From the sequence record MZ065353.1: a stretch of DNA of 64,000 bases. The stretch is one strand, 5' to 3'. The notes beneath the pieces are model-generated. The model made no database searches and was not told the origin of the DNA. It worked only from the letters and a program-made list of their open reading frames with translations. Positions 1,738 to 43,499 of the stretch are shown piece after piece. Made by a program: the position numbers and the translations under genes. Within the stretch, counting starts at the first letter, position 1. Each line of letters begins with the position of its first letter. Source of the stretch: Escherichia virus KFS-EC3.

Positions 1738-1820
1738 CATACAAGTAATATAAATCTATACTTAGGAAAAATAGATGATTCTAGGTCCTATAAATTCATT
1801 AAAAATTTTTTCACAAAACT

Positions 1821-1850
1821 GTTTACATCCCTGTTCTTCCATGGTACTAT
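1821..1850 (+). promoter_or_regulatory. early (sigma70-type) promoter inside PeSL-like cassette
   Basis: TTTACA-N17-TACTAT; same cassette recurs at 29632, 30139, 33441, 50716. Confidence 0.5.
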
Positions 1851-1878
1851 ACAACTATCAACTACGGAGGAACACAAA

Positions 1879-2130
1879 ATGAAAAACATTCAAACTAATT
1901 TTATTCAAAATTTAAAAGTTGTTAATGCAGAAAAAGCTAATAAACTCTTTAAAGTTAAAGAATTCGAAAATGAAGGTAATACTTATGGTATTATAGAACA
2001 AAATGGAATGGTGACTGGATTAGAAATTTATAATGGCAAAGGAAAATTTCAGTCACAGCCAATTTCTGTTATGGGTGTAAGAAAAGGAATTAAAACTGAA
2101 GATGCTTTAAAATTATTTGTTAAGTTTTAA
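1879..2130 (+). CDS. hypothetical protein (83 aa), cassette cargo ORF
   Basis: ATG 7 nt after SD GGAGG in conserved leader; ORF-track frame 1696..2130 trimmed to this ATG. Confidence 0.5.
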   Translation: MKNIQTNFIQNLKVVNAEKANKLFKVKEFENEGNTYGIIEQNGMVTGLEIYNGKGKFQSQPISVMGVRKGIKTEDALKLFVKF

Positions 2131-8422: not shown

Positions 8423-8680
8423 ATGCATATTGTTTTATTTAAACCTACTCCGTATAACGTCAGGAAAAATACTCAATTCAAAGCACTTATCGCAGATACG
8501 TGGGAATTGGTATTAGATATTCCAGCAGAAGAAAGCCCTCCATTTGGTCGAGTGGAATTTATTAAGTTTGCTGTGCGCCCTACAAAGCGGCAGATTCGCC
8601 AATGCAAAAGATACTTTCGTAAAATCGTCAAGTTAGAGAAACAGTTTGTAACATGTGATTATACAGAAGTTTTAAAATAG
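8423..8680 (+). CDS. hypothetical protein, T4 61.4-like (85 aa)
   Basis: ATG after SD GAGGATAAT, 2 nt past dmd stop; position matches T4 61.4. Confidence 0.55.
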   Translation: MHIVLFKPTPYNVRKNTQFKALIADTWELVLDIPAEESPPFGRVEFIKFAVRPTKRQIRQCKRYFRKIVKLEKQFVTCDYTEVLK

Positions 8681-8682
8681 TA

Positions 8683-8712
8683 GTTTACAAGCTGATAGAG
8701 TTGTGTTATAGT
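8683..8712 (+). promoter_or_regulatory. early promoter
   Basis: TAG-TTTACA-N17-TATAGT; inverted repeat GCTGATAGAG/TCTATCAGC around -10. Confidence 0.5.
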
Positions 8713-8743
8713 AATTCTATCAGCTAATCGCGGAGAAAAGAAA

Positions 8744-8998
8744 ATGATGCTAGTTAATAGAGAATATCAGTTTAAATCAGAAGAAGATTTGGAAAAATTC
8801 GCGAGTGGTTGTGAACTGAATAGACGCACAGCTAAAGTCATAGGATTAAAACCCTTTACAGTTCTAGATTGTGAAGTTTCTAAATTCCGCAGAGGGTGTT
8901 CTATTAGCGGTCATGCTCTTGTTGATGGGAACACATTTTTCTTTGTTTTTAGCGTCAGAGAACTTTTATTGATTAACGAACTTGAGGAAATAAAATAG
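8744..8998 (+). CDS. hypothetical protein (84 aa)
   Basis: ORF with SD GGAGAAAAG and its own early promoter. Confidence 0.5.
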   Translation: MMLVNREYQFKSEEDLEKFASGCELNRRTAKVIGLKPFTVLDCEVSKFRRGCSISGHALVDGNTFFFVFSVRELLLINELEEIK

Positions 8999-9062
8999 TT
9001 TACTTTTGTTTTAAACATGTTATTATAGACCTATCAAAACAAACGAGTAAATGGAGAACAAA

Positions 9063-9245
9063 ATGTCTAAAGTATCAGGTTATCAATTATTAACACAAGA
9101 ACAACGCTCAGAGATGGATTCTTTACAAGAACGGTGTCAGCATAGAAATAACGCACTTGATTCATTTTTATTAGTTGAATATGAAAACTTGTGCTCTAGA
9201 CTTGAAAAAGAATATGTTCATCAACATGAAGGAGGAGAAGAATGA
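9063..9245 (+). CDS. hypothetical protein (60 aa)
   Basis: ATG after SD GGAG (alternative ATG at 9051); preceded by early promoter near 8998-9027. Confidence 0.45.
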   Translation: MSKVSGYQLLTQEQRSEMDSLQERCQHRNNALDSFLLVEYENLCSRLEKEYVHQHEGGEE

Positions 9246-9348
9246 AACTGAAATCACCAATTATTGCAATTTGTCTGTTTGCTTCTACTAGTGTTTACTT
9301 TTGTTGAAAATTGAGATACTATAAACATAAACTACTGAGGAGATTATC

Positions 9349-21407: not shown

Positions 21408-21514
21408 ATTTGCATAAAGTTTAAAATTTTTTCATAAAACTATATACATCAGTAGTTGATTATGGTACTATATCAATATCAACTACTGATACAGAAAACA
21501 ACTTGGAGAATAAA

Positions 21515-23268: not shown

Positions 23269-23319
23269 GCTTTATGATTACCGGAGTATAATATTCCCGA
23301 AACCAAACGAGGATAAGTG

Positions 23320-25137
23320 ATGATTAAGAATGAAATTAAAATTCTGAGCGATATTGAACATATCAAAAAGCGTAGCGGCATGTACATTGGTTCTTCTGCT
23401 AATGAAATGCATGAGCGCTTTCTGTTTGGTAAATGGGAAAGTGTTCAGTATGTACCTGGTCTTGTTAAGCTTATTGATGAAATTATCGATAACTCAGTAG
23501 ATGAAGGTATTCGTACTAAGTTTAAATTCGCGAATAAAATTAATGTTACTATTAAAAACAATCAAGTAACAGTTGAAGATAACGGTCGTGGTATTCCACA
23601 AGCGATGGTTAAAACACCTACTGGTGAAGAAATTCCTGGTCCTGTTGCTGCCTGGACTATTCCAAAAGCAGGTGGTAACTTTGGTGATGATAAAGAACGC
23701 GTCACTGGCGGTATGAATGGTGTTGGTTCTAGTTTAACTAACATTTTTTCTGTGATGTTTGTTGGTGAAACTGGCGACGGTCAAAATAATATTGTAGTTC
23801 GTTGTTCAAATGGCATGGAAAATAAATCATGGGAAACTATTCCTGGAAAATGGAAAGGAACTCGTGTTACTTTCATTCCTGATTTTATGTCATTTGAAAC
23901 TAATGAGCTATCTCAAGTTTATCTTGACATTACACTGGATCGTCTCCAGACACTTGCAGTAGTTTATCCTGATATTCAATTTACCTTTAACGGTAAAAAG
24001 GTTCAGGGTAATTTTAAGAAATATGCACGCCAATATGATGAGCATGCTATCGTTCAAGAACAGGAAAACTGTTCTATTGCGGTCGGTCGTTCACCCGACG
24101 GTTTTCGTCAATTAACATACGTTAATAACATTCATACTAAGAATGGTGGCCATCACATTGACTGTGTTATGGATGATATTTGTGAAGACCTTATTCCACA
24201 AATCAAACGTAAATTTAAAATTGACGTAACTAAAGCACGTGTTAAAGAATGTTTGACTATCGTTATGTTTGTTCGTGATATGAAAAACATGCGATTTGAT
24301 TCTCAGACTAAAGAGCGTTTGACTTCTCCATTTGGTGAAATTCGTAGTCATATTCAGCTTGATGCTAAAAAGATTTCACGTGCTATTTTAAATAATGAAG
24401 CAATTTTAATGCCAATTATTGAAGCTGCTTTGGCTCGTAAATTGGCGGCAGAAAAAGCAGCAGAAACTAAAGCAGCTAAAAAGGCTTCTAAAGCTAAGGT
24501 TCATAAACATATTAAAGCGAATCTTTGTGGTAAAGATGCTGACACGACTCTTTTCTTGACTGAGGGTGATTCTGCTATCGGATATCTTATTGATGTTCGT
24601 GATAAAGAACTTCATGGTGGTTATCCATTACGTGGTAAAGTTCTCAACAGTTGGGGTATGTCATATGCTGATATGCTTAAAAATAAAGAACTGTTTGATA
24701 TTTGCGCAATCACTGGATTAGTTCTTGGTGAAAAGGCTGAAAACTTAAATTATCATAATATTGCCATTATGACTGACGCTGACCATGATGGTCTAGGAAG
24801 CATTTATCCTTCTCTGCTCGGATTTTTTAGTAATTGGCCAGAACTGTTTGAACAAGGAAGAATTCGCTTTGTCAAAACTCCTGTAATCATCGCTCAGGTC
24901 GGTAAAAAACAAGAATGGTTTTATACAGTCGCTGAATATGAGAGTGCCAAAGATGCTCTACCTAAACATAGCATCCGTTATATTAAAGGACTTGGCTCTT
25001 TGGAAAAATCTGAATATCGTGAGATGATTCAAAATCCAGTATATGATGTTGTTAAACTTCCTGAGAACTGGAAAGAGCTTTTTGAAATGCTCATGGGAGA
25101 TAATGCTGACCTTCGTAAAGAATGGATGAGCCAATAG
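23320..25137 (+). CDS. 39: DNA topoisomerase II large subunit (GyrB-like), unsplit gp39 (39+60 equivalent)
   Basis: 605 aa continuous ORF with ATPase and Toprim regions; no gene 60 split. Confidence 0.9.
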   Translation: MIKNEIKILSDIEHIKKRSGMYIGSSANEMHERFLFGKWESVQYVPGLVKLIDEIIDNSVDEGIRTKFKFANKINVTIKNNQVTVEDNGRGIPQAMVKTPTGEEIPGPVAAWTIPKAGGNFGDDKERVTGGMNGVGSSLTNIFSVMFVGETGDGQNNIVVRCSNGMENKSWETIPGKWKGTRVTFIPDFMSFETNELSQVYLDITLDRLQTLAVVYPDIQFTFNGKKVQGNFKKYARQYDEHAIVQEQENCSIAVGRSPDGFRQLTYVNNIHTKNGGHHIDCVMDDICEDLIPQIKRKFKIDVTKARVKECLTIVMFVRDMKNMRFDSQTKERLTSPFGEIRSHIQLDAKKISRAILNNEAILMPIIEAALARKLAAEKAAETKAAKKASKAKVHKHIKANLCGKDADTTLFLTEGDSAIGYLIDVRDKELHGGYPLRGKVLNSWGMSYADMLKNKELFDICAITGLVLGEKAENLNYHNIAIMTDADHDGLGSIYPSLLGFFSNWPELFEQGRIRFVKTPVIIAQVGKKQEWFYTVAEYESAKDALPKHSIRYIKGLGSLEKSEYREMIQNPVYDVVKLPENWKELFEMLMGDNADLRKEWMSQ

Positions 25138-25191: not shown

Positions 25192-25395
25192 ATGAAATCA
25201 TATAAAGTAAATTTAGAACTTTTTGATAAAGCAGTTCATCGAGAATATAGAATCATTCAACGCTTTTTCGATATGGGAGAAGCCGAAGAGTTTAAAAACC
25301 GCTTTAAGGATATTAGAGATAAAATTCAATCCGACACCGCAACTAAAGATGAACTACTAGAAGTTGCTGAAGTTATTAAACGCAATATGAATTAA
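25192..25395 (+). CDS. hypothetical protein (67 aa)
   Basis: ORF with SD GAGGATATTGAA. Confidence 0.5.
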
Positions 25396-25405
25396 TGAGG
25401 AAATT

Positions 25406-27583
25406 ATGATTATCACCACTGAAAAAGAAACAATTCTTGGTAATGGTTCTAAATCAAAAGCATTTAGCATCACAGCGTCTCCTAAAGTATTTAAAATTCT
25501 ATCATCTGATTTGTATACAAACAAGATTCGCGCAGTAGTTCGTGAATTGATTACTAATATGATTGATGCCCATGCTCTTAATGGAAATCCTGAAAAATTT
25601 ATCATACAAGTTCCAGGACGATTAGATCCGCGATTTGTTTGCCGAGATTTTGGTCCAGGTATGAGCGATTTTGATATTCAGGGTGATGATAATTCTCCTG
25701 GGTTGTATAATTCATACTTTAGTTCATCTAAGGCTGAATCTAACGATTTCATTGGTGGATTTGGTTTAGGTTCTAAATCTCCGTTTAGTTATACTGATAC
25801 GTTCAGTATTACTTCGTACCATAAAGGTGAAATTCGCGGTTATGTAGCTTATATGGATGGTGATGGTCCACAGATTAAACCTACATTCGTAAAAGAAATG
25901 GGTCCAGACGATAAAACTGGTATTGAAATCGTAGTTCCAGTTGAAGAAAAAGACTTTAGAAATTTTGCTTATGAAGTTTCTTATATCATGCGACCATTCA
26001 AAGATTTGGCTATCATTAATGGTCTTGACCGTGAAATTGATTATTTTCCGGATTTTGATGATTATTATGGCGTAAATCCAGAAAGATACTGGCCAGATCG
26101 TGGTGGATTGTATGCTATCTATGGTGGTATTGTTTATCCTATTGATGGTGTTATTAGAGACCGTAACTGGTTAAGCATTCGCAATGAAGTGAATTATATT
26201 AAGTTTCCAATGGGTTCGTTGGATATTGCTCCATCGCGTGAAGCGCTTTCATTAGATGATCGTACTCGTAAAAATATTATTGAGCGTGTTAAAGAACTCA
26301 GTGAGCAGGCATTTAATGAAGATGTAAAACGATTTAAAGAATCTACATCTCCTCGTCATACATACCGTGAATTGATGAAGATGGGATATTCTGCTCGAGA
26401 TTATATGATTAGTAATTCGGTCAAATTCACGACTAAAAATCTGTCATATAAGAAGATGCAGAGCATGTTTGAACCTGACAGTAAGTTATGTAATGCAGGA
26501 GTTGTGTATGAAGTAAATCTTGACCCTCGACTGAAACGCATTAAGCAAAGCCATGAAACTTCAGCCGTTGCATCAAGTTATCGTCTGTTTGGTATTAATG
26601 CAACAAAAATTAATATCGTTATTGATAATATTAAAAATCGTGTTAATATTGTCCGTGGATTAGCCCATGCGTTAGATGATAAAGAATTTAATAACACTTT
26701 AAATATTCACCATAATGAACGTCTTCTGTTTATTAATCCAGAAGTAGAATCGCAAATTGATTTACTTCCTGATATTATAGCAATGTTTGAAAGTGATGAA
26801 GTTAACATTCATTATTTGTCAGAAATTGAAGCTTTAGTTAAAAGCTATATTCCGAAGGTAGTTAAAAGTAAAGCTCCTCGTCCTAAAGCTGCCACAGCAT
26901 TTAAGTTTGAAATTAAAGATGGACGGTGGGAAAAAGAGGAGTTATTTACTCTCACATCAGAAGCAGATGAAATTACTGGTTATGTAGCATACATGCATCG
27001 CTCTGACATTTTCTCTATGGATGGTACTACATCTCTTTGTAATCCATCTACGAGTATTTTGATTCGTATGGCTAATCTTATTGGCATTAATGAATTTTAT
27101 GTTATTCGTCCGCTTTTACAGAAAAAGGTAAAAGAACTCGGTCAGTGCCAATGTATTTTTGAAACTCTGCGTGATTTATATGTAGATGCTTTTGATGATG
27201 TAGATTATGATAAGTATGTAGGATATTCAAGTTCAGCTCAACGATATATTGATAAAATTATTAAGTATCCTGAACTAGATTTTATGATGAAGTACTTCAG
27301 TATAGATGATGTTTCTGAAGAATATACTCGCCTTGGTAATATGGTTAGTTCATTGCGAGGTGTATATTTCAACGGTGGAAAAGATACCATCGGTCATGAT
27401 ATTTGGACAGTAACTAATCTCTTTGATGAATTGTCACGTAATGCTTCAAAAAACAGTGATAAAATGGTTGCTGAGTTTACCAAGAAATTCCGTATTGTTT
27501 CTGACTTCATCGGATATCGCAGCTCTTTAAGTGATGATGAAGTTTCCCAAATCGCTAAAACTATGAAGGCCCTTGCGGCCTAA
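25406..27583 (+). CDS. rIIA: rIIA membrane-associated protein
   Basis: 725 aa, matches T4 rIIA length; synteny with rIIB. Confidence 0.95.
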
Positions 27584-27594
27584 TAAGGAAAATT

Positions 27595-28533
27595 ATGTAC
27601 AATATTAAATGCCTGACCAAAAACGAACAAGCTGAAATTGTTAAATTGTATTCAAGCGGTAATTATACTCAGCAGGAATTGGCTGATTGGCAAGGTGTAT
27701 CGGTTGACACAATCCGCCGTGTTTTGAAAAATGCCGAAGAAGCTGGTCGTTCTAAAGTTACTATTAGTGGTGACATTACAGTTAAAGTTAAGAGCGATGC
27801 AGTTATTGCTCCAGTTGCTAAATCTGACATTATTTGGAATGCATCTAAAAAATTCATTTCAATTACTGTTGATGGTGTAACTTATAACGCAACTCCTAAT
27901 ACTCATTCAAACTTCCAGGAAATTCTTAATCTGCTTGTTGCAGATAAACTGGAAGAAGCAGCACAAAAAATTAATGTTCGCCGTGCTGTTGAAAAATATA
28001 TTTCCGGCGATGTTCGAATTGAAGGTGGAAGTTTGTTCTATCAAAATATCGAATTGCGATCTGGTTTAGTTGATCGTATTCTTGATTCGATGGAAAAAGG
28101 TGAAAATTTTGAATTTTATTTTCCGTTCTTGGAAAATCTGTTGGAAAACCCAAGCCAAAAAGCGGTGTCTCGACTCTTTGATTTCTTGGTAGCAAATGAT
28201 ATTGAAATTACAGAAGATGGCCACTTCTATGCTTGGAAAGTAGTTCGCAGTAATTACTTCGACTGCCATTCAAATACTTTTGATAACAGTCCGGGTAAAG
28301 TAGTTAAAATGCCACGTACTCGCGTGAATGACGACGATACACAAACTTGTTCTCGTGGTTTGCATGTGTGTTCTAAATCTTATATTCGTCACTTTGGTAG
28401 TTCAACTAGTCGAGTCGTAAAAGTTAAAGTACACCCTCGCGATGTAGTATCAATTCCAATTGATTACAATGATGCTAAAATGCGTACCTGCCAATACGAA
28501 GTAGTTGAAGACGTTACTGAACAATTCAAATAA
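27595..28533 (+). CDS. rIIB: rIIB protein
   Basis: 312 aa, matches T4 rIIB length. Confidence 0.95.
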   Translation: MYNIKCLTKNEQAEIVKLYSSGNYTQQELADWQGVSVDTIRRVLKNAEEAGRSKVTISGDITVKVKSDAVIAPVAKSDIIWNASKKFISITVDGVTYNATPNTHSNFQEILNLLVADKLEEAAQKINVRRAVEKYISGDVRIEGGSLFYQNIELRSGLVDRILDSMEKGENFEFYFPFLENLLENPSQKAVSRLFDFLVANDIEITEDGHFYAWKVVRSNYFDCHSNTFDNSPGKVVKMPRTRVNDDDTQTCSRGLHVCSKSYIRHFGSSTSRVVKVKVHPRDVVSIPIDYNDAKMRTCQYEVVEDVTEQFK

Positions 28534-28564
28534 GGGCTTCGGCCCTTAACTATAAAGGAAAATT

Positions 28565-28759
28565 ATGTTAGGTTATCAAGCACGAGTAAAAGAAGAATAC
28601 GATCAGCTAATGCTCAAAATTAATGCGTTGAGCAAATTTTTAGAAAGCACAAAGTTTTTAACAGTTAATGAAGTTGAACAAGAATTACTGCTTTCACAGT
28701 TTATCTCAATGAAATCTTATGCTGACTGCTTAGAGAAAAGAATTGCGCAATTCAAATAA
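28565..28759 (+). CDS. hypothetical protein (64 aa) flanked by duplicated hairpin segment
   Basis: ORF with SD AAGGAAAATT; about 45-bp imperfect direct repeat on both sides. Confidence 0.45.
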   Translation: MLGYQARVKEEYDQLMLKINALSKFLESTKFLTVNEVEQELLLSQFISMKSYADCLEKRIAQFK

Positions 28760-28762
28760 TTA

Positions 28763-28785
28763 AAGGGCTTCGGCCCTTTTGTTTT
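28763..28785 (+). terminator. Rho-independent terminator
   Basis: AAAGGGC-TTCG-GCCCTTT hairpin plus TGTTTT; second copy of hairpin at 28532-28547. Confidence 0.55.
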
Positions 28786-28795
28786 AAGGGAAATT

Positions 28796-29125
28796 ATGAT
28801 TTATTATATGAATATCAGTGATTCCGATATAAAAGAGATTAATCTACACGGAAATCATCACGCTAACATCGTGTACTGTAACAAATTTGAGTTTGGTCAT
28901 GAAAATTTAGGATTTCTTTATTGCAATGATGTTATAGTCATGGATAAAAAGAAACTCGATGAACTTGATCGTGAATCTTTAGATGAAAATGATCGAATTT
29001 ATTATGGTACTCTTAAAGTATATAACGCTTATCTCAGTGGTAAAAAGGAAAGTCTAAATGCAGAAAACGAATCCGGGTTTACAGAGACTGTTTCAGATTC
29101 CGACATTTACCCTATCGAACAATGA
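28796..29125 (+). CDS. hypothetical protein (109 aa)
   Basis: ORF with SD AAGGGAAATT. Confidence 0.45.
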   Translation: MIYYMNISDSDIKEINLHGNHHANIVYCNKFEFGHENLGFLYCNDVIVMDKKKLDELDRESLDENDRIYYGTLKVYNAYLSGKKESLNAENESGFTETVSDSDIYPIEQ

Positions 29126-29615
29126 TTTGACTGGTGAAATGAAGATCAAAATTGCTGATACTGCAAGATACTCTTTAAAACAAAATCCAAACCAAGATAA
29201 AGCAGAAGTCATCGAAAGATGCCGTATCGCTGTGTATGCAGAGTTTTTTGTAGCAGATTGGCTGAGCGGATATGTTAACAAAGGTCAAGAGGATGTTAAT
29301 GACCCGTATACATACGCATGGGATGTATTGGCACATCCAAGATACTGTGGGCTTCGAGTAGAAGTCAAGACACATCAAACTGACTCACGCTGGATTTCTG
29401 TAACAACAGGATGCAGCGGAGAGTATCCATACGGTTCTGGAATAAATCTAGGGCCCATTCTGAATCATCAAGTCGCAGACTGTATAATTATATTCAACAC
29501 TAAAGAAATTCATCCAGGTGTCATCCAGTACACTCCGAAGTTCATTGGTGACAGAGAAGACCTTCGTAAGGTTGTAAGAAAAAGTAACTACAACGGATGG
29601 TATCTTTCCATTTAA
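29058..29615 (+). CDS. denB: endonuclease IV DenB
   Basis: 185 aa, same length and position as T4 DenB. Confidence 0.85.
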   Translation: MQKTNPGLQRLFQIPTFTLSNNDLTGEMKIKIADTARYSLKQNPNQDKAEVIERCRIAVYAEFFVADWLSGYVNKGQEDVNDPYTYAWDVLAHPRYCGLRVEVKTHQTDSRWISVTTGCSGEYPYGSGINLGPILNHQVADCIIIFNTKEIHPGVIQYTPKFIGDREDLRKVVRKSNYNGWYLSI

Positions 29616-29631
29616 AAATTTTCACAAAACG

Positions 29632-29661
29632 GTTTACATACCACAAGGACTGTGGTATTAT
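29632..29661 (+). promoter_or_regulatory. early promoter inside PeSL-like cassette
   Basis: TTTACA-N17-TATTAT followed by conserved leader ACAACTATCAACTACGGAGGAACAGAAA. Confidence 0.5.
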
Positions 29662-29689
29662 ACAACTATCAACTACGGAGGAACAGAAA

Positions 29690-29953
29690 ATGAAATTTAA
29701 GTTCTTTTACGTTAAACATAAAATTACCGGTGAATTTATTGCATTTACGACTTCAACTACAGATGAAGGAGATATTTTTACTGCAGTATTTTTATCAAAA
29801 TGGGAATCAGATCAACCTTACTTATCATCACGTGAAGATCTTCAACAATTAGTTAATGGAGAATATAATGATTCATGGTCATATTTAGTCCATGATTGTG
29901 TTAAAAAGGCAATAAAACAAAAACGCTTGGAAATCGTTGAGATTGAACTATGA
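29690..29953 (+). CDS. hypothetical protein (87 aa), cassette cargo ORF
   Basis: ATG 7 nt after leader SD GGAGG. Confidence 0.5.
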   Translation: MKFKFFYVKHKITGEFIAFTTSTTDEGDIFTAVFLSKWESDQPYLSSREDLQQLVNGEYNDSWSYLVHDCVKKAIKQKRLEIVEIEL

Positions 29954-30138
29954 GTTCATTATGGTGGTGTTTCGTTTGGTTAATTAGTATTCCTTTAATT
30001 TGTTTAGCATTTACTTTTGTGATGAGGTTATTATGAAAATTTTGAATTCTGTACTTATTGCTTGTGCGTGGTGGGTTGTGCAAGTTTCAGCGGTAGTAGT
30101 TGGTATTCACATTTATTACGAATATTTTTAAAAAAGTT

Positions 30139-30168
30139 GTTTACAAGACTGTTCCTCTGTGGTACTAT
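30139..30168 (+). promoter_or_regulatory. early promoter inside PeSL-like cassette
   Basis: TTTACA-N17-TACTAT plus identical leader. Confidence 0.5.
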
Positions 30169-30196
30169 ACAACTATCAACTACGGAGGAACAGAAA

Positions 30197-30310
30197 ATGA
30201 AAAAGATTGTTAAAGCTATATGGAATGTAATTATAATTTTAGTTGTTTTGAGTATATTCCCAATTGTTTTAATGATTGATGTATTAAACGCTTACTTTGG
30301 ATTTATGTGA
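30197..30310 (+). CDS. small hydrophobic peptide (37 aa), cassette cargo ORF
   Basis: ATG after leader SD; single TM-like segment. Confidence 0.35.
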   Translation: MKKIVKAIWNVIIILVVLSIFPIVLMIDVLNAYFGFM

Positions 30311-30317
30311 GGAAAAT

Positions 30318-30515
30318 ATGAAGCGTAAACGTAGTGCTTTTACATTTATTGAATGGTTTTTCGATAATATTTTTCCGGCTTTATTCATTTTCATGCTGAT
30401 TTTCGCCTTAGGTTCAGTTGTAGTTGGAATTTATTTAATGGCGGTTGTCGGAATGGATATTCACCAAAACGGTTTAAAATCTGTAGTTGAAACAATTTGG
30501 AATGGTGTAAAATGA
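30318..30515 (+). CDS. small membrane protein (65 aa)
   Basis: ATG after SD GAGGAAAAT; two hydrophobic segments. Confidence 0.4.
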   Translation: MKRKRSAFTFIEWFFDNIFPALFIFMLIFALGSVVVGIYLMAVVGMDIHQNGLKSVVETIWNGVK

Positions 30516-30630
30516 TGAATTTGTTGAGTGGTTGGTTTTATATTCTTATGTTTTACATTGGTGCAAATTTCCCGTATTGGATGGGATGGTCAACAACTGC
30601 ATTTGGATTTTATACTCCTTGAGGTGAATT

Positions 30631-30846
30631 ATGAAAATCTTTAAAGATGTAAAAGTTGGTGAAATTTTTTGCTTGGATAGCGGTGATCAGTTAATTCGCA
30701 TTTCACCTCTTAAGAGTACCAGCGAGAAAATGACAGTTAACGCTACTTTAGTAAATAACAGTAATGAACGTTTCTGTATTGAAAATGATACTGAAACTTA
30801 TACCGTAGAAGAGTTCTGGGAATTGAGCGTCGACTGCGACGATTAA
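30631..30846 (+). CDS. hypothetical protein (71 aa)
   Basis: ORF with SD GAGGTGAATT. Confidence 0.45.
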   Translation: MKIFKDVKVGEIFCLDSGDQLIRISPLKSTSEKMTVNATLVNNSNERFCIENDTETYTVEEFWELSVDCDD

Positions 30847-30906
30847 TTTATCGGCCGTGTGTATTCATGCGGCCTTGGAGTAGAAAATAATTTAGAGGAA
30901 ATTAAT

Positions 30907-31362
30907 ATGAAATACATGACTTCTAGTGATTTACGTGATGCAGGCGCTACTATTATTGGTACAATCAAGAATGGCGAATGGTTTTTGGGAACTCCGCATA
31001 AAGACATTTTATCTAAACCTGGATTTTACTTTTTAGTGAGTAAATTCGGTGGTCCATTTGGTTGTCCATGCGTATCTGCACGATTTTATGTAGGTAATCA
31101 GCGTTCTAAGCAAGGATTCAGCGCAGTTCTAAGTCATATTCGTCAACGTCGGTCTCAGCTTGCGCGTACTATTGCAAATAACAATGTTCCATACGCAGTA
31201 TTTTATCTGCCTGCTTCTAAGATGAAACCTCTGACGACTGGATTCGGAAAAGGTCAGTTAGCTTTAGCGTTTACTCGTAATCATCATTCTGAGTATCAAA
31301 CGCTTGAAGAAATGAACCGTATGTTGGCTGATAACTTTAAATTTGTTTTGCAGGCATACTAA
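30907..31362 (+). CDS. ndd: nucleoid disruption protein Ndd
   Basis: 151 aa from internal ATG after SD GAGGAAATTAAT; matches T4 Ndd as recalled. Confidence 0.85.
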
Positions 31363-31535
31363 TGAAAGCTCTATTTGTAATGGGTTACCTATTAGTTTTA
31401 GCCTTATTCACATTGACTGGAATCTTTACGGCTTTAGGTCTACCTCTTAATGATAATGTGGCTGTCGTGATGTGTGTAGGTGGCGGATTTATCTGTTTTG
31501 AACGTTTATGCAAAATGTGTGGTGTGTATGAGTAA
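31362..31535 (+). CDS. small membrane protein (57 aa)
   Basis: ATGA overlap with ndd stop; two TM-like segments. Confidence 0.35.
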
Positions 31536-31608
31536 TTTCCATAACGAACATGTGATGCAGTTCTATCGTAACAATCTTAAAACCAAAGGCGTCTTCGGAC
31601 GCCAGTGA
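31528..31608 (+). CDS. stp: Stp peptide (26 aa)
   Basis: [26 protein letters not shown] matches the T4 Stp peptide as recalled. Confidence 0.8.
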
Positions 31609-31615
31609 GGAAAAT

Positions 31616-31774
31616 ATGAATATCGCAAAATTATTAGGAGTTATTTCATTTATTTGTTGGATAGTAGCATGTGTTTTAACTATCTGTATCGATGCTAGCA
31701 GTGTGTTTTCACAAGCTTTAGCCCAGGGTATGTGTGCATATTTAACATTTGTGTTGTTATCTACTAATGATTAA
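31616..31774 (+). CDS. small membrane protein (52 aa), ac-like position
   Basis: SD GAGGAAAATAT; hydrophobic; T4 ac sits near here. Confidence 0.4.
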   Translation: MNIAKLLGVISFICWIVACVLTICIDASSVFSQALAQGMCAYLTFVLLSTND

Positions 31775-31907
31775 GAAAATCTTGGGCTATTCATTAGCCC
31801 TTGCTGCTTTATTGGTAGCACTATATTATGGAGTAATGTTCGGATTAATTCAAGTCGTGCTTTTCATTTCTGATGTTATTATGGCACTACATTCACTAGT
31901 ATGGTAA
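31767..31907 (+). CDS. small membrane protein (46 aa)
   Basis: Hydrophobic ORF ending 4 nt before gene 52. Confidence 0.35.
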   Translation: MIKKILGYSLALAALLVALYYGVMFGLIQVVLFISDVIMALHSLVW

Positions 31908-31911
31908 ATTT

Positions 31912-33240
31912 ATGCAACTGAATAATCGCGATTTAAAAAGTATCATTGATAATGAAGCATTGGCTTATGCTATGTACACGGTTGAAAATCGTGCTATCCC
32001 AAATATGATTGATGGATTTAAGCCAGTTCAACGATTTGTTATTGCTCGAGCTCTTGATTTGGCACGAGGAAATAAAGATAAGTTTCACAAACTCGCTTCT
32101 ATTGCAGGTGGTGTAGCAGACCTTGGATATCATCATGGTGAAAACTCTGCACAAGACGCAGGTGCTTTGATGGCTAATACTTGGAATAATAACTTTCCTC
32201 TGTTAGATGGTCAAGGAAACTTTGGTTCTCGTACCGTTCAAAAAGCAGCGGCAAGTCGTTATATTTTTGCTCGTGTAAGTAAAAATTTCTATAACGTATA
32301 TAAAGATACTGAATATGCTCCGGTACATCAAGATAAAGAACACATTCCGCCTGCTTTCTATTTGCCTATTATTCCTACTGTTCTTCTTAACGGTGTTTCC
32401 GGTATTGCAACTGGTTATGCAACTTACATTCTTCCTCATAGTGTTTCTTCTGTCAAGAAAGCTGTATTACAAGCTCTTCAAGGAAAGAAAGTAACTAAAC
32501 CGAAGGTAGAATTCCCAGAATTTCGCGGTGAAGTCGTTGAAATTGACGGTCAATATGAAATTCGTGGAACATATAAGTTTACTTCACGAACTCAAATGCA
32601 TATCACTGAGATTCCATATAAGTATGATCGTGAAACTTATGTGAGTAAAATCTTAGACCCGCTTGAAGATAAAGGCTTCATTACGTGGGATGATGCTTGT
32701 GGCGAGCATGGTTTTGGCTTCAAGATTAAATTCCGCAAAGAATATTCTTTGAGCGATAATGAAGAAGAACGTCATGCAAAAATTATGAAAGACTTCGGGT
32801 TGATTGAGCGTCGTTCTCAGAATATTACGGTTATTAATGAGAAAGGAAAACTACAAGTTTACGATAACGTAGTTGATTTAATTAAAGACTTTGTTGAAGT
32901 TCGTAAAACTTATGTCCAAAAACGAATTGATAATAAAATTAAAGAAACTGAGTCAGCTTTTCGTTTAGCTTTTGCCAAGGCACATTTCATTAAGAAAGTA
33001 ATTTCAGGTGAAATTGTTGTGCAGGGTAAAACTCGCAAAGAACTGACCGAAGAACTTTCTAAAATTGATATGTATTCTTCTTATGTTGATAAACTAGTTG
33101 GAATGAATATTTTTCATATGACTTCAGATGAAGCAAAGAAACTTGCTGAAGAAGCTAAAGCCAAAAAAGAAGAAAACGAATATTGGAAAACTACCGATGT
33201 AGTTACAGAATACACCAAAGATTTAGAGGAAATCAAATGA
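31912..33240 (+). CDS. 52: DNA topoisomerase II medium subunit gp52 (GyrA-like)
   Basis: 442 aa; matches T4 gp52 length. Confidence 0.95.
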   Translation: MQLNNRDLKSIIDNEALAYAMYTVENRAIPNMIDGFKPVQRFVIARALDLARGNKDKFHKLASIAGGVADLGYHHGENSAQDAGALMANTWNNNFPLLDGQGNFGSRTVQKAAASRYIFARVSKNFYNVYKDTEYAPVHQDKEHIPPAFYLPIIPTVLLNGVSGIATGYATYILPHSVSSVKKAVLQALQGKKVTKPKVEFPEFRGEVVEIDGQYEIRGTYKFTSRTQMHITEIPYKYDRETYVSKILDPLEDKGFITWDDACGEHGFGFKIKFRKEYSLSDNEEERHAKIMKDFGLIERRSQNITVINEKGKLQVYDNVVDLIKDFVEVRKTYVQKRIDNKIKETESAFRLAFAKAHFIKKVISGEIVVQGKTRKELTEELSKIDMYSSYVDKLVGMNIFHMTSDEAKKLAEEAKAKKEENEYWKTTDVVTEYTKDLEEIK

Positions 33241-33386: not shown

Positions 33387-33391
33387 TCTTA

Positions 33392-33416
33392 GGGGAGCCT
33401 CGGCTCCCCTTTTTTA
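33392..33416 (+). terminator. Rho-independent terminator
   Basis: GGGGAGC-CTCG-GCTCCCC hairpin followed by TTTTTT. Confidence 0.7.
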
Positions 33417-33440
33417 TTTCAAAAATTTTTTCACAAAACG

Positions 33441-33470
33441 GTTTACAACCAAAGCATTCCATGGTACTAT
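33441..33470 (+). promoter_or_regulatory. early promoter (PeSL-like cassette, variant leader) upstream of motA
   Basis: TTTACA-N17-TACTAT; leader ACAACTATCAACTACTGATACAG. Confidence 0.5.
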
Positions 33471-33511
33471 ACAACTATCAACTACTGATACAGAATTACG
33501 GAGATTAGAAA

Positions 33512-34147
33512 ATGTCTAAAGTAACTTACATCATCAAAGCTTCTAACGATGTTCTGAATGAAAAAACTGCCGCAATTTTAATTACCATTGCTAAGAAAGA
33601 TTTCATTACAGCTGCAGAAGTTCGTGAGGTGCATCCAGATTTAGGTAACGCAGTAGTTAATAGTAATATTGGGGTATTGATTAAAAAAGGCCTGGTGGAG
33701 AAATCTGGTGATGGATTAATCATTACAGGCGAAGCTCAGGATATTATTTCAAATGCGGCAACTTTATATGCACAGGAAAATGCTCCTGAACTACTGAAAA
33801 AACGAGCAACTCGTAAAGCTCGTGAGATTACTTCCGATATGGAAGAAGATAAAGACTTCATGTTAAAACTTTTAGATGAAAATGGATTTGTTCTTAAAAA
33901 GGTTGAAACTTATCGCAGTAACTATCTCGCTATTTTAGAAAAACGCACTCATGGAATTCGTAATTTTGAAATTAACAACAATGGAAATATGCGAATTTTT
34001 GGATACAAAATGATGGAACATCATATTCAGAAATTTACTGACATCGGTATGTCATGCAAAATCGCTAAAAATGGTAATGTGTATCTTGACATTAAACGCT
34101 CAGCAGAAAACATTGAAGCTGTAATCACTGTAGCATCTGAACTGTGA
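33512..34147 (+). CDS. motA: middle transcription activator MotA
   Basis: 211 aa, matches T4 MotA length. Confidence 0.9.
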   Translation: MSKVTYIIKASNDVLNEKTAAILITIAKKDFITAAEVREVHPDLGNAVVNSNIGVLIKKGLVEKSGDGLIITGEAQDIISNAATLYAQENAPELLKKRATRKAREITSDMEEDKDFMLKLLDENGFVLKKVETYRSNYLAILEKRTHGIRNFEINNNGNMRIFGYKMMEHHIQKFTDIGMSCKIAKNGNVYLDIKRSAENIEAVITVASEL

Positions 34148-36238: not shown

Positions 36239-36895
36239 TTATTTAGCCCTTCCTAATATTCTGGCCGCCTGAGCACATATTGATTCAAGGCGGTCATTAC
36301 TTATATGATCATTTCTATACCAGTACATGGTTATTGTTCCAGCATAGATATTATCCAAATTGAAATATGGACAACTGTACATGTAATTTATTTCGGGAGT
36401 AGGCTTTTTAGTCGGTAAAAAAGCAAATTTTGAGTTGGAATAATAATGACGTCCATTTAAATGAACTGCATATTCATCCATAGTTTTATCAACAGGATAT
36501 CCTCCAAGTGATTTTTCACTTATTGTTGAAGGTAATTTTCCTTCATATGCTATAATATCAACAAAATAGTTTAAGTTTTTAGGGCGGAAAGAATACACCG
36601 CACTAAAGTCTGCCTCAGATGATATATGAACTATCTGGAGTTGTTCCAGGGCGACAGATTCAAAGCGTGCATTTCTTTCCTTTTCAATAATTTCACTGTA
36701 TGTTTCATACTTTGATTGCTTATAGTACTCAAAGAAACTATCTCCCCTATACCAAACAATCGCCATTATAAACAAAAGAATTACGACAGCTACCCGGGAA
36801 GCAAGAACTTTCCCGGTAGCGTTATCTTTGAACAAGCGATCTAGAACACCAAACAGAATATCAGAGGGCGAAAATGATATTCTAGGTGCTGCCAT
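36239..36895 (-). CDS. t: holin T
   Basis: 218 aa, single N-terminal TM segment; matches T4 T as recalled. Confidence 0.9.
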   Translation of the reverse strand: MAAPRISFSPSDILFGVLDRLFKDNATGKVLASRVAVVILLFIMAIVWYRGDSFFEYYKQSKYETYSEIIEKERNARFESVALEQLQIVHISSEADFSAVYSFRPKNLNYFVDIIAYEGKLPSTISEKSLGGYPVDKTMDEYAVHLNGRHYYSNSKFAFLPTKKPTPEINYMYSCPYFNLDNIYAGTITMYWYRNDHISNDRLESICAQAARILGRAK

Positions 36896-36926
36896 AGACC
36901 CTCCTTTTAAGGATATTTATTCAAAA

Positions 36927-37712
36927 TTATACTCTTGCACCATATATTGTACCAACTTTAGTCCAAGTTGGAGCATTACCAGTAACAGCTTTACCTGCTG
37001 CGCCGCCGTTATATTCTGATCCTTGACCGCGAATATTACATTTACCTCCTGCAGCTCCGGCATCACCACCATTCCCGCCATTATAGATACCGTTGACAGA
37101 CCCTTTACCGGGTGCAGAAATAGTACCAGCGGTAGCACCTTGTTCCATATTAGCAGAACCACCAGCAGCGCCAAATGGACGACCGCCTCCTCCGCCAAAA
37201 GTCAATTTCATTTGTGAAAAAGGAGAGTAGTATCCGCCGCCGCCACCGCCACCGCCTCCTGCGATAACACCATTGTTGTTAATACGTAATCTAGTTCCAA
37301 TTCCGTTATTTATTGCAGTTCCTCCTGCTCCACCGGCAGAGTTATTTCCACCATTCCCGCCGCGACCCCAAACATGCACACCTGAATTGATATTAAGTGT
37401 CACATACGCATTAGTTAACGAGCTAGGAAAATCTAAGCATGGAACACCAGTAGATTGAGAAACAATATTTCCTGTAATAGTAATAACAACAGGAGTGCTT
37501 CCTTGGGCTTTTATCCAATTTATTAGTGTGTCTTTATTATAAGAATTGCTAGCACCAATGCTGTAATATACTTCTTTAGATTGTCCGGCCATTGAGCTCA
37601 TCCAACCAGGAACTGAAACACGAACTGCTTTCATTGCAGCATCCATCCAACGTTGTCCAGTTTCATTCACGGCAGATTCACCAATCCAGCCAGGAACACC
37701 TACAATTGCCAT
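36927..37712 (-). CDS. 38: long tail fibre tip adhesin gp38 (T2/T6 type)
   Basis: 261 aa; conserved N-terminus MAIVGVPGWIG; poly-Gly motifs GGGGGGGGGYYSP. Confidence 0.8.
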   Translation of the reverse strand: MAIVGVPGWIGESAVNETGQRWMDAAMKAVRVSVPGWMSSMAGQSKEVYYSIGASNSYNKDTLINWIKAQGSTPVVITITGNIVSQSTGVPCLDFPSSLTNAYVTLNINSGVHVWGRGGNGGNNSAGGAGGTAINNGIGTRLRINNNGVIAGGGGGGGGGYYSPFSQMKLTFGGGGGRPFGAAGGSANMEQGATAGTISAPGKGSVNGIYNGGNGGDAGAAGGKCNIRGQGSEYNGGAAGKAVTGNAPTWTKVGTIYGARV

Positions 37713-37742
37713 TAAAAATCCTTAGAGGGCCGAAGCCCTCTT

Positions 37743-40700: not shown

Positions 40701-41639
40701 TCTTTCTCCCATTGGAGTAGGAGAGCCATAATTGTTAGTATTTTCATCAGTGGTAATTGTGCCAATAGCAAGCGAACGACGTAATACCATTGCGCCATCA
40801 TTACGAAGACCCATTAATTTAGTAGTAAGCGAGTTTCCGGTCCACCAAGAAATTTCATCATTCTTACCGGTTTGAGCTGAAGCGATTTCATGGTAAATAG
40901 TTCCACCTGATTTAGCTCGAACTTTACGAAGATAGTTTATACCATTTTCTTCGCCTGTTCCAGGATAAACATATTGAACTAATGATTGCGAATCATATTG
41001 TCCGAATGCTTTTGTATCTAAAATAATATTTTTAGTATTAATTTGAGGTGAAGTAATATTTCCAATAGCTGCAATATTTCCAGATGTAGTTATACTACCT
41101 CCTGATACTGCTAAACCTCCTGTATCAACAACAAATCCACCGTCACGTCGAAACGTCCAATATTTCGAATCGCCAGATTCATTAATATAATGAATCTTCA
41201 ACGAACCTTCAGAAACTAAAGTACCTAATGAAAAAGTTCCATCTTTAAAGCGCTGCTTAATTATAGGATTATATTCAGATGTGGAAAGAGCTGAGCTCAA
41301 ATCTACAAAAATTGGGGCTTTTGCAGCATGTTGACCAGCCCAAGCCCCACTTCCAGTAGTACGATAATTAAACTCAATATATCCACCGCTTGCTACAATT
41401 TGCGGACCAATTAAATTAAATTTTCCAGTCTGTGTATAATCACCGGTTTGAGTGATATTTCCACTGATATTACCGCCAGCAGAAATGCTTAAATCAATGA
41501 TATTTCCTGAATCATCTTTAGTAAAAATTGTTCTATCTTTTAAGTTTATAGCCAATTCACCTTCGGCTAATACTGAAGCAGCAGGACGTGCACCTGCGGT
41601 TTTGCTTCTTTTAAATTGTATTTGTTTTAAAGTAGCCAT
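37743..41639 (-). CDS. 37: long tail fibre distal subunit gp37 with C-terminal chaperone-like domain
   Basis: 1298 aa; N-terminus [13 protein letters not shown]; C-terminal ...[11 protein letters not shown]...ELESKLM. Confidence 0.85.
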
Positions 41640-41647
41640 AAGTCCTC

Positions 41648-42313: not shown

Positions 42314-42336
42314 TGTATGCCCCTTTATTTTAATAG

Positions 42337-42344
42337 TATTTATA
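42337..42344 (-). promoter_or_regulatory. late promoter (TATAAATA) for genes 36-37-38
   Basis: Exact late octamer on minus strand about 24 nt upstream of gene 36 start. Confidence 0.45.
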
Positions 42345-42347
42345 AAG

Positions 42348-42370: not shown

Positions 42371-42375
42371 TCAAT

Positions 42376-43491: not shown

Positions 43492-43499
43492 AATACCTC

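What the first reader, a model, noticed from the sequence alone, without database searches (positions are those of the whole stretch)
29616..30196. Family of near-identical terminator/early-promoter/leader cassettes (PeSL-like) scattered through the window
A roughly 60-80 nt element recurs with near identity: AAAATTTTTTCACAAAAC-GGTTTACA-N17-TACTAT-ACAACTATCAACTACGGAGGAACAGAAA-ATG. Copies lie at about 1805-1878, 29619-29689 and 30127-30196. Variants with a different leader (ACAACTATCAACTACTGATACAG or ACAACTATCGGCAAT) lie at 33420-33511 and 50697-50788, and a degenerate copy at 21427-21514. Each has a sigma70-type -35/-10, a conserved transcribed leader with its own Shine-Dalgarno, and usually follows a strong terminator hairpin. 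Identity extends well beyond what promoter function needs, which argues for recent spread by recombination. This matches the promoter-early stem-loop (PeSL) elements reported to drive modular gene shuffling in T4-type phages, and they mark the plasticity hot-spots of this genome.
Basis: partly seen in the sequence, partly recalled or inferred. Interest (0 to 1): 0.6.

Follow-up and report, generated by a model that had tools for sequence, protein, structure and literature searches.

The report
Repeated T4-type early promoter cassettes
The repeated 85-base element is a sub-family of the strong early promoters of a T4-like phage, with start site and ribosome-binding leader attached; such promoter cassettes (PeSLs) are already published as likely gene-shuffling points, so the finding is real but not new.

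Summary
The window is a T4-like coliphage (Tequatrovirus) read along its early-transcribed strand. All six copies exist where stated and are far beyond chance.

They are mosaic, not near-identical: 58-78% overall, against 43-45% among other early promoters. The UP/-35 block and a 23-nt -10/start-site block are conserved. The 17-nt spacer is as variable as background, and the leader comes in four types.

All six sites are occupied by the same element in T4 itself (before imm.1, cef, ndd.6, ndd.4, motA, frd.3). The family is therefore old and syntenic, not recently spread.

What varies between relatives is the spacer, the leader and the first ORF downstream, with homology breaking exactly at the 3' edge of the conserved core at two sites.

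Hairpins that bracket the -10 box are significant in 11 of 20 early promoters. Upstream terminators occur at only 3 of 6 copies.

Comeau, Arbiol and Krisch (2014) already describe PeSLs in the T4/PST pair, including this ndd locus.

The "hot-spot" claim cannot be separated from the fact that indel ends fall in intergenic DNA (P = 0.31).

Verdict: already known, modest interest.

The parts
1794..1878 (+). Cassette copy 1, between gene 43 and an 83-aa ORF: UP 1794-1820, -35 GTTTACA 1821-1827, -10 TACTAT 1845-1850, core ACAACTATCAACTAC 1851-1865 (predicted +1 at A1857), leader GGAGGAACACAAA 1866-1878.
   Evidence: The orthologous T4 promoter lies upstream of imm.1. The spacer/SD hairpin has z = -3.25. 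A terminator-like hairpin lies at 1716-1733, 86 nt upstream.
1879..2130 (+). Variable cargo ORF of 83 aa (phrog_18567, unknown function). It is absent from T4 and RB7, and GiZh has an unrelated 78-aa ORF in its place.
   Evidence: tblastn finds it in only 37 phage records, including T2, RB27 and RB51. Alignment and chaining. PHROG assignment.
21415..21514 (+). Cassette copy 2, the degenerate copy upstream of an 89-aa ORF and cef: -35 ATATACA 21442-21448, -10 21466-21471, core ATCAATATCAACTAC 21472-21486, leader with GGAGAATAAAA 21487-21514.
   Evidence: A perfect 13-bp inverted repeat, ATCAGTAGTTGAT/ATCAACTACTGAT, brackets the -10 box (dG -20.1, z = -5.8). T4 orthologue. The GGAGAATAAAA in the leader equals the optimal RegB/S1 site (PMC1702504).
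21515..21784 (+). First ORF after copy 2 (89 aa, phrog_3720, unknown function). In T4 it is cut down by a 200-nt internal deletion.
   Evidence: (window-only segment 21522-21723).
29605..29689 (+). Cassette copy 3, directly after the denB stop codon: -35 29632-29638, -10 TATTAT 29656-29661, core 29662-29676 (predicted +1 at 29668), leader GGAGGAACAGAAA 29677-29689. The spacer holds the palindrome TACCACA-AGGAC-TGTGGTA.
   Evidence: T4 orthologue. Hairpin z = -1.7.
29690..29953 (+). Variable cargo ORF of 87 aa (phrog_2390, unknown function). It has two allele classes (>90% and about 52% aa identity), is replaced by an unrelated 68-aa ORF in RB32, and is reduced to its last 8 codons in T4.
30112..30196 (+). 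Cassette copy 4, upstream of the ndd.4 homologue (30197-30310): -35 30139-30145, -10 30163-30168, core 30169-30183 (predicted +1 at 30175), leader 30184-30196. It forms a 507-bp tandem pair with copy 3 (37 nt identical).
   Evidence: Spacer CTGTTCCTCTG pairs with SD CGGAGGAACAG (dG -23.2, z = -6.45), and the pairing is retained in 9 orthologous loci. T4 orthologue with a diverged core.
33391..33511 (+). Cassette copy 5, the motA promoter: terminator hairpin 33391-33410 plus T-run, UP 33414-33440, -35 33441-33447, -10 33465-33470, core 33471-33485, leader with GGAGATTAGAA 33486-33511. motA is 33512-34147.
   Evidence: The sequence is identical from -35 to ATG in T4, T4T, RB32, EL, ESh33, Lutter and two IMG/VR contigs. 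The motA SD is a known RegB cleavage site (PMC2988021).
50667..50788 (+). Cassette copy 6, the frd.3 promoter: gene 32 terminator hairpin 50667-50685 plus T-run, UP 50689-50715, -35 50716-50722, -10 50740-50745, core variant ACAACTATCGGCAAT 50746-50760, leader to 50788. The frd.3 ATG is at 50789 by the T4 annotation.
   Evidence: The spacer is AAGCATAAAGCTTTAT in the window and T4, but ATCCTTGTCCTTCCAT in EL, ESh33 and IMG/VR contigs, with identical flanks.
8638..9322 (+). T4, PhiZZ30 and GiZh have one promoter here and RB7 has two. The crossovers lie exactly in the -35 hexamer.
   Evidence: junction sequences. The 8683 promoter has a -10-bracketing hairpin, GCTGATAGA/TCTATCAGC (z = -4.6).

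Best explanation
These are immediate-early promoters of a T4-like phage, each fused to a short leader.

How transcription and translation work:
- Host sigma70 RNA polymerase binds an A/T-rich UP element (AAAAATTTTTTCACAAAAC), a -35 GTTTACA, and a TGn-extended -10 (TGGTACTAT) after a 17-nt spacer.
- It starts at the A of CTATCAAC, 7 nt after the -10 box.
- The 20-40 nt leader carries a strong Shine-Dalgarno sequence. In most copies this is also a RegB/S1 nuclease site (GGAG plus an A-rich tail), so expression would be a short burst.

The hairpin:
- In several copies the spacer is complementary to the start-site or SD region.
- An RNA that reads through from upstream can therefore fold a hairpin around the -10 region. 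An RNA started at the cassette's own promoter cannot.
- This probably insulates the cassette gene from upstream transcription.

The recombination role:
- The UP/-35 block and the 23-nt -10/core block recur in direct orientation at six or more conserved sites per genome.
- They, together with the SD-ATGAAA motif, can serve as short homologies for the phage's recombination system.
- Leaders and first ORFs are thereby exchanged, gained or lost between co-infecting relatives. This is the published PeSL model.

Shown here: the sequence anatomy, orthology with T4 promoters, the mosaicism and the breakpoint positions. Inferred: promoter activity, RegB cleavage, hairpin function and the recombination mechanism.
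For: Promoter anatomy.

Orthology: the same elements sit upstream of T4 imm.1, cef, ndd.6, ndd.4, motA and frd.3. The predicted +1 of the imm.1 copy is T4 position 27,044. That is the coordinate PMC6024815 gives as the start of the early-transcribed region there.

Family more alike than other early promoters: UP 0.69 against 0.37-0.41; core 0.84 against 0.34-0.41; spacer at background.

Distribution: the cassette is found in 661 phage records, with 4-7 places per Tequatrovirus genome.

Mosaicism among 57 core copies:
- the same spacer precedes three different leaders and ORFs;
- the same 87-aa ORF follows three different leaders;
- the frd.3 copy has two unrelated spacers between identical flanks.

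Breakpoints:
- Homology with T4, RB7, GiZh, RB32 and ESh33 ends at window 1865-1868 and 29674-29679, which is the last bases of the core.
- At 8683-9293, whole promoter+ORF units are present or absent, with crossovers in GTTTAC or GTTTACTTTTGTT.

Hairpins: 11 of 20 early promoters have z < -3. The stems persist in orthologues, and most one-sided changes keep G-U pairing.

RegB: the consensus is GGAGRAYARAA (PMC1702504). It is matched 11/11 by the cef copy, 10/11 by the motA copy (a known substrate, PMC2988021) and 8/11 by leader type 1.

Literature: PeSLs are defined in PMC2839356 and described for T4/PST, including the ndd locus, in PMC4122927.
Against: 1. No expression data exist for this phage.
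2. The link between breakpoints and promoters disappears when only intergenic DNA is allowed: 10 of 24 intergenic breakpoints lie near promoters against 35% expected (P = 0.31).
3. Right-hand breakpoints of the two family-copy replacements are not in a cassette. They lie at the next gene's RBS or at the ORF tail.
4. The two T4 deletions at these sites used 8-nt repeats at start codons (AAATGAAA, ATGAAAAT), not the core.
5. No record in a 30-row spread of 497 shows the precise deletion expected from recombination between the tandem copies 29632 and 30139.
6. Other early promoters share a weaker CTATCAA start-site motif, so part of the core identity is functional constraint.
7. No double-sided compensatory changes were seen in the strong hairpins.
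Confidence: 0.8

Rival explanations
1. Pure functional constraint. The copies are alike only because they are near-optimal solutions for a very strong early promoter, its start site and its ribosome-binding/RegB site. They play no special part in recombination, and the indels next to them simply reflect that gene-sized indels must end in intergenic DNA.
For: - The intergenic-only null is not rejected.
- T4 early promoters are known to share consensus beyond UP/-35/TGn/-10 (PMC2988021).
- Non-family promoters share CTATCAA at the start.
- The elements are syntenic with T4 at all six sites.
- The motA copy is invariant.
- The T4 deletions used start-codon microhomology.
Against: - Divergence begins within 1-3 nt of the same core edge at two sites and in five independent relatives.
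- Spacer, leader and ORF assort independently around identical blocks.
- At 8683-9293 the crossovers are exactly in the -35 hexamer.
- The 37-nt identity of the tandem pair, which includes the first two codons, exceeds that of their orthologues in phage Lutter.
Confidence: 0.15
2. An autonomous mobile element. On this view the cassette, or the cassette plus its ORF, moves by its own site-specific machinery, like an integron cassette or a homing element, and has recently spread through the genome.
For: The copies are repeated, directly oriented and next to small ORFs of unknown function. Arbiol et al. raise the possibility of a dedicated recombinase.
Against: - All six sites are already occupied in T4, so no recent spread is seen.
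- There are no terminal inverted repeats or target duplications.
- No integrase or endonuclease lies next to the copies in this window. T4's seg, mob and intron endonucleases are absent at the corresponding places.
- The cargo ORFs match only PHROGs of unknown function.
Confidence: 0.03
3. The conserved transcribed part is a structured cis-regulatory RNA, such as a riboswitch or a binding site for a small RNA or protein, and not merely a start site plus SD.
For: 15 nt downstream of the -10 box are identical in four copies. Hairpins that include this region are significant.
Against: - Only about 9 nt of the core are transcribed from the cassette's own promoter, and these are followed directly by the SD.
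- The hairpin's 5' arm lies upstream of +1.
- No Rfam family matches anywhere in the window.
- Leader types are interchangeable in front of the same ORF.
Confidence: 0.02

Closest known systems
PeSLs of the T4/PST pair (Comeau, Arbiol & Krisch 2014, PMC4122927)
   Same: Same phage group and same promoter consensus (TTTACW-N17-TAYWAT). Same composite layout: AT-rich upstream region, -35/-10, SD and start codon. Same locus: their Fig. 6A treats the ndd.4/.5 exchange between two such elements after denB.
   Different: That paper places the stem-loops just upstream of the promoter. In this window most significant stem-loops lie in the spacer or bracket the -10 box.
PeSLs of RB49/phi1 (Arbiol et al. 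2010, PMC2839356)
   Same: The concept and layout are the same. So are the stem-loop positions: between -35 and -10, or overlapping the -10 box, are their commonest classes. So is the association with differential ORFans and the tandem pairs that flank small ORFs.
   Different: The sequence family is different. Theirs has near-perfect TTGACA/TATAAT boxes and G-run/C-run stems. The authors themselves call the T-even elements analogues, not homologues. Mini-circles were shown only for RB49/phi1.
Bacteriophage T4 early promoters (Pe), reviewed by Hinton 2010 (PMC2988021)
   Same: The UP/-35/TGn/-10 'uber' promoter architecture. There is direct orthology with the T4 promoters upstream of imm.1, cef, ndd.6, ndd.4, motA and frd.3.
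   Different: None in kind. The six copies are the subset with an extended shared UP block and start-site core.
RegB/S1 cleavage sites in T4 early mRNA leaders (Durand et al. 2006, PMC1702504)
   Same: GGAG within the SD, followed by an A-rich tail. The cef copy carries the optimal GGAGAAUAAAA, and the motA SD is a known substrate.
   Different: Leader type 1 (GGAGGAACAGA) matches only 8 of 11 positions. The frd.3 leader has no GGAG. Cleavage has not been tested for this phage.
Botstein-Campbell linker sequences, morons and integron cassettes
   Same: Short conserved regulatory sequences between exchangeable gene modules. Each module carries its own promoter.
   Different: There is no dedicated recombinase or attachment site. 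The exchange is presumed to use general phage recombination on homologies of 6-37 nt.

Membership tests
T4-type early promoter (Pe) | -35 GTTTAC(A/T), a 17-nt spacer, and a TGn-extended -10 TA(C/T)(A/T)AT | tested here: met
   Five of six copies match with at most 1 mismatch. The 21442 copy has a weak -35, ATATACA.
T4-type early promoter (Pe) | A/T-rich UP element at about -40 to -60 | tested here: met
   AAAA(A)TTTTTTCACAAAAC is present in five copies, and TATTTTTAAAAAAGTT in the 30139 copy. UP-block identity is 0.69 within the family.
T4-type early promoter (Pe) | Intergenic position on the early-transcribed strand, directly upstream of an early gene, and orthologous to a T4 early promoter | tested here: met
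   Gene map. T4 orthologues at imm.1, cef, ndd.6, ndd.4, motA and frd.3. The predicted +1 of the imm.1 copy equals T4 map unit 27,044, the coordinate quoted in PMC6024815.
T4-type early promoter (Pe) | Active immediately after infection with unmodified host sigma70 polymerase | not testable with these tools
   Needs 5' end mapping or in vitro transcription.
PeSL (promoter-early stem-loop) | Composite element: upstream stop codon, AT-rich region, early promoter, then SD and start codon of the next gene | tested here: met
   For example, the denB stop codon at 29613-29615 is followed by the cassette at 29605-29689 and an ATG at 29690.
PeSL (promoter-early stem-loop) | A stem-loop within or next to the promoter | tested here: met
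   Hairpins bracket the -10 box at 1821 (z = -3.25), 21442 (z = -5.8) and 30139 (z = -6.45). Weaker palindromes lie inside the spacer at 29632 (z = -1.7) and 50716 (z = -2.0). The 33441 copy has none internally but has an adjacent upstream terminator.
PeSL (promoter-early stem-loop) | Several conserved copies per genome | tested here: met
   There are six copies in 64 kb and 4-7 places per Tequatrovirus record. Identity is block-wise, 58-78% overall.
PeSL (promoter-early stem-loop) | Adjacent to ORFs that are inserted, deleted or replaced between close relatives | tested here: inconclusive
   True at the 1821, 21442 and 29632 copies, and for the module between 29632 and 30139. Not true at motA. 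Ten of 28 indel events touch a promoter element against 2.75 under a uniform null, but the excess vanishes under an intergenic-only null (P = 0.31).
PeSL (promoter-early stem-loop) | Recombination between neighbouring copies gives deletions and mini-circles | not testable with these tools
   This is an experimental feature. As an indirect test, a synthetic junction of the tandem pair was searched against GenBank phages. All 29 full-length rows in a spread of 497 records still hold the intervening module. At 8683-9293, promoter-to-promoter deletions or insertions do exist.
PeSL, RB49/phi1 sequence type | Near-perfect TTGACA-N17-TATAAT with G-run/C-run stems | tested here: not met
   The boxes here are TTTACA and TACTAT, and the stems are mixed or AT-rich. 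The authors call the T-even elements analogues. The 2014 T4/PST consensus TTTACW-N17-TAYWAT is met.
RegB/S1 target site | Single-stranded GGAG followed by an A-rich tail (GGAGRAYARAA) | tested here: inconclusive
   Matches by inspection against PMC1702504: cef copy 11/11, motA copy 10/11, leader type 1 8/11, frd.3 leader no GGAG. Cleavage itself is not testable here.

The most novel reading that the evidence does not exclude
The hairpins that bracket the -10 box of about half the early promoters may form an origin-of-transcript switch.

In the 1821, 30139, 15063, 20257 and 59568 promoters the hairpin pairs the promoter spacer with the SD or RegB site. A message that reads through from an upstream promoter would fold the SD away. 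It would then be untranslated, protected from RegB, or attenuated. A message started at the cassette's own promoter lacks the 5' arm and stays open.

Each promoter+ORF unit would then be a self-insulated expression module. That insulation would be what makes promiscuous exchange of such units tolerable.

T4 is known to use this logic for late promoters inside hairpins (e, soc, 49). That comparison rests on my own knowledge. To my knowledge the logic has not been described for early promoters as a class.
Probability: 0.25. Interest if true: 0.45.

Novelty: already known. Interest (0 to 1): 0.22.

Why it matters
These cassettes drive the first minute of phage gene expression. They sit in front of the small, fast-changing accessory genes that are thought to tune T4-like phages to particular hosts.

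The published claim is that such cassettes are preferred crossover points. If so, they explain how T-even phages swap accessory genes without wrecking regulation, and they offer natural landing pads for engineering therapeutic phages.

This window adds clean examples: breakpoints at the core edge, and a three-state promoter+ORF 'accordion' at 8683-9293. It also adds a caution. The apparent hot-spot signal cannot yet be told apart from the constraint that viable indels end between genes.

Tried and rejected
1. I first read T4's short ORF after denB (MKIAEIEL) as an ectopic import of the imm.1 leader plus 12 nt of imm.1. I rejected this. The second allele class of the 87-aa ORF ends ...NEMKIAEIEL, so T4 carries an internal deletion between 8-nt repeats (AAATGAAA).

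2. I looked for a natural precise deletion between the tandem copies 29632 and 30139 using a synthetic junction query. None appeared in a spread sample of 497 records.

3. Breakpoint enrichment is significant against a uniform null but not against an intergenic-only null. I therefore do not claim hot-spots.

4. Covariation in the hairpins: only one-sided (G-U) changes were seen, with no double compensatory changes in the strong stems.

5. An Rfam scan of the whole window found no family.

6. No T4 genome-wide start-site dataset was found in the paper library. Miller et al. 2003 is not held.

7. PHROG searches of the cargo ORFs returned only families of unknown function.

8. In fact they are stored several per file.

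Full report
**Context**

The window is a T4-like coliphage (Tequatrovirus), read so that its + strand is the early-transcribed strand.
- Positions 28000-32000 match about 590 phage records, at 94.6% identity in the best full-length match. They cover rIIB, denB, ndd, ac and gene 52.
- No GenBank phage is a near-identical match. The best covers 95% of the first 25 kb at 96.6%.
- Comparison with the T4 annotation and the ORF list gives this map: gene 43 end (36-1703), imm.1 (2143), dexA (19567), gene 39 (23317), rIIA (25406), rIIB (27595), denB (29058-29615), gene 52 (31912), motA (33512), tail-fibre genes on the other strand (36239-47369), gene 32 (49736) and frd.3.

**Observation**

- The 28-nt core/leader occurs three times with at most 1 mismatch, against 0 expected.
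- The 18-nt core TATACAACTATCAACTAC occurs four times exactly and once with 3 mismatches, against 0.08 expected.
- The repeat finder returns one six-member family.
- Each copy has GTTTACA, 17 nt, then TA(C/T)TAT preceded by TGG. The exception is the cef copy, whose -35 is ATATACA.

'Near-identical' is too strong. Ungapped identity over 85 nt is 58-78% between copies, against 43-45% (maximum 62%) for other early promoters of the window. Identity by block:

| Block | Within family | Family-other / other-other |
|---|---|---|
| UP | 0.69 | 0.41 / 0.37 |
| TGn/-10 | 0.91 | 0.68 / 0.68 |
| 15 nt after the -10 box | 0.84 | 0.41 / 0.34 |
| Spacer | 0.33 | 0.29 / 0.32 |

The leader comes in four types:
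- GGAGGAACA(G/C)AAA, in three copies;
- TGATACAGAAAACAACTTGGAGAATAAA, in the cef copy;
- TGATACAGAATTACGGAGATTAGAAA, in the motA copy;
- GGCAATACTGCTGATGATTAAAGAGGAAAATAAT, in the frd.3 copy.

A strong upstream terminator lies directly before only two copies (33391-33410 and 50667-50685). A third lies 86 nt before the 1821 copy.

**The elements are old and syntenic**

T4 carries the same core at the orthologous places:
- upstream of imm.1 (27036-27053);
- upstream of motA (163629-163646);
- downstream of denB (167042-167059);
- a degenerate copy before cef (6586-6603);
- the frd.3 variant;
- a diverged copy before ndd.4.

The family is therefore not a recent spread. An 84-nt copy finds 661 phage records, with 4-7 places per Tequatrovirus genome.

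**What varies is what lies between and behind the conserved blocks**

Fifty-seven copies of the 17-nt core were collected from eight relatives and ten IMG/VR contigs. They show free assortment.
- The spacer AAGCATAAAGCTTTAT precedes three different leaders and ORFs.
- The frd.3 promoter has two unrelated spacers between identical flanks.
- The denB-site promoter drives either the 87-aa ORF behind three different leaders or an unrelated 68-aa ORF, as in RB32.
- The motA copy is identical from -35 to ATG in every phage examined.

At the gene 43/imm.1 site, homology with T4, RB7 and GiZh ends at 1865-1868. At the denB site, homology with T4, RB32 and ESh33 ends at 29674-29679. In both cases this is the last bases of the core.

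The cargo differs:
- The 83-aa ORF at 1879-2130 is found in only 37 phage records. It is replaced by a 78-aa ORF in GiZh and is absent in T4 and RB7.
- The 87-aa ORF at 29690-29953 has two allele classes, >90% and about 52% identity.

At 8683-9293 the window has three early promoters and two ORFs. RB7 has two promoters and one ORF. T4, PhiZZ30 and GiZh have a single promoter. The joints lie exactly in GTTTAC or GTTTACTTTTGTT.

**Cautions**

1. I first took T4's 8-codon ORF after denB for an import from the imm.1 cassette. One search shows it is the tail of the other ORF allele, left by an internal deletion between 8-nt repeats.
2. T4's imm.1 arrangement is likewise explained by a deletion between two ATGAAAAT start regions.
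3. The right-hand ends of the replacements are at the next RBS or the ORF tail, not in a cassette.
4. In the comparison with eight relatives, 10 of 28 indel events have an end within 20 nt of an early-promoter element. A uniform null expects 2.75 (no shuffle of 5000 reached 10). But 35% of intergenic bases lie that close to a promoter, and 10 of 24 intergenic breakpoints do, giving P = 0.31. The hot-spot claim is not separable from the rule that viable indels end between genes.
5. No record in a spread sample of 497 shows the precise deletion between the tandem copies.

**Stem-loops**

I folded the region from just after the -35 hexamer to about +27 for 20 early promoters. Eleven have z < -3 against dinucleotide shuffles; a twelfth, at 15063, has z = -2.7.
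- In most of these the hairpin brackets the -10 box, as at 8180, 8683, 20409, 21442, 51426 and 62893.
- In five the 3' arm is the SD: 1821, 30139, 15063, 20257 and 59568.
- The stems persist in orthologues. In the strong stems almost all changes are one-sided and keep a G-U pair. This hints at selection at the RNA level on the sense strand. The counts are small and no double compensatory change was seen.
- These positions match the commonest PeSL classes of Arbiol et al..

**Leader function**

The RegB/S1 site is GGAGRAYARAA, with GGAGAAUAAAA as the T4 optimum (PMC1702504).
- The cef copy carries that optimum.
- The motA SD is a known RegB target (PMC2988021).
- Leader type 1 matches 8 of 11 positions.
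- The frd.3 leader has no GGAG.

The predicted start is the A of CTATCAAC, 7 nt after the -10 box. In T4 that is position 27,044 for the imm.1 promoter, the coordinate that PMC6024815 gives for the start of the early-transcribed region there. No Rfam family matches the window.

**Known or new**

PeSLs were defined in RB49/phi1 (PMC2839356). They were extended to the T4/PST pair with the consensus TTTACW-N17-TAYWAT, using the ndd.4/.5 locus as the worked example (PMC4122927).

This window adds:
- the recognition that these six copies are a high-identity subset defined by a shared start-site core;
- exact breakpoint positions;
- evidence that the stem-loop component is mainly promoter-embedded;
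- a statistical caveat on the hot-spot claim.

Noticed in passing
window 8180, 8683, 15063, 20257, 20409, 21442, 30139, 51426, 59568, 62893 (each is the -35 start; the hairpin spans about +7 to +50 from there): About half of all early promoters in the window have a highly significant inverted repeat (z from -2.7 to -7.1) whose arms lie in the promoter spacer and in the first transcribed bases or the SD. The -10 box therefore sits in the loop. The stems are retained in related phages.
   Followed up: partly
window 8638-9322: A three-state 'accordion' of promoter+ORF units: three promoters and two ORFs in the window, two promoters in RB7, and one in T4, PhiZZ30 and GiZh. The crossovers lie exactly in the -35 hexamer GTTTAC (6-13 nt of shared sequence).
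   Followed up: yes
L006 (T4T) about 1888-1914; L005 (T4) about 25340-25420: T4 itself carries short remnants of the first ORF behind two of these promoters. One is MKIAEIEL, the last 8 codons of the 87-aa ORF. The other is a truncated version of the 89-aa ORF before cef, with a 200-nt internal deletion. Neither is annotated in AF158101.
   Followed up: partly
window 29690-29953: The 87-aa ORF after denB exists in about 640 phage records in two sharply separated allele classes (>90% and about 52% aa identity) at the same locus. More distant homologues occur in RB69- and JS98-type phages. Its function is unknown (phrog_2390).
   Followed up: partly
window 28532-28576 and 28763-28807: A second small repeat: the hairpin AAGGGCTTCGGCCCTT followed by an RBS and ATG occurs twice, 231 nt apart, flanking the denB.1 homologue (family D12). 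Both copies scan as bidirectional terminator-like sites.
   Followed up: no
window 23317-25137, 49636-49672, 52633-53586: This phage lacks T4's mobile insertions. Gene 39 is one 606-aa ORF, with no gene 60 split and no mobA. There is no segG between genes 59 and 32, no td intron or I-TevI, and no Rfam group I intron hit anywhere in the window.
   Followed up: partly
window 31606-31620: The relatives vB_Eco_EL and ESh33 have an extra 148 nt here and annotate two adjacent 'acridine resistance' ORFs. This points to a tandem duplication of ac that the window lacks.
   Followed up: no
whole window: No GenBank phage record is a close full-length match. The best covers 95% at 96.6% for bases 1-25000 and 94% at 93.0% for bases 27600-52599. 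The window is a new mosaic of known T-even segments.
   Followed up: partly
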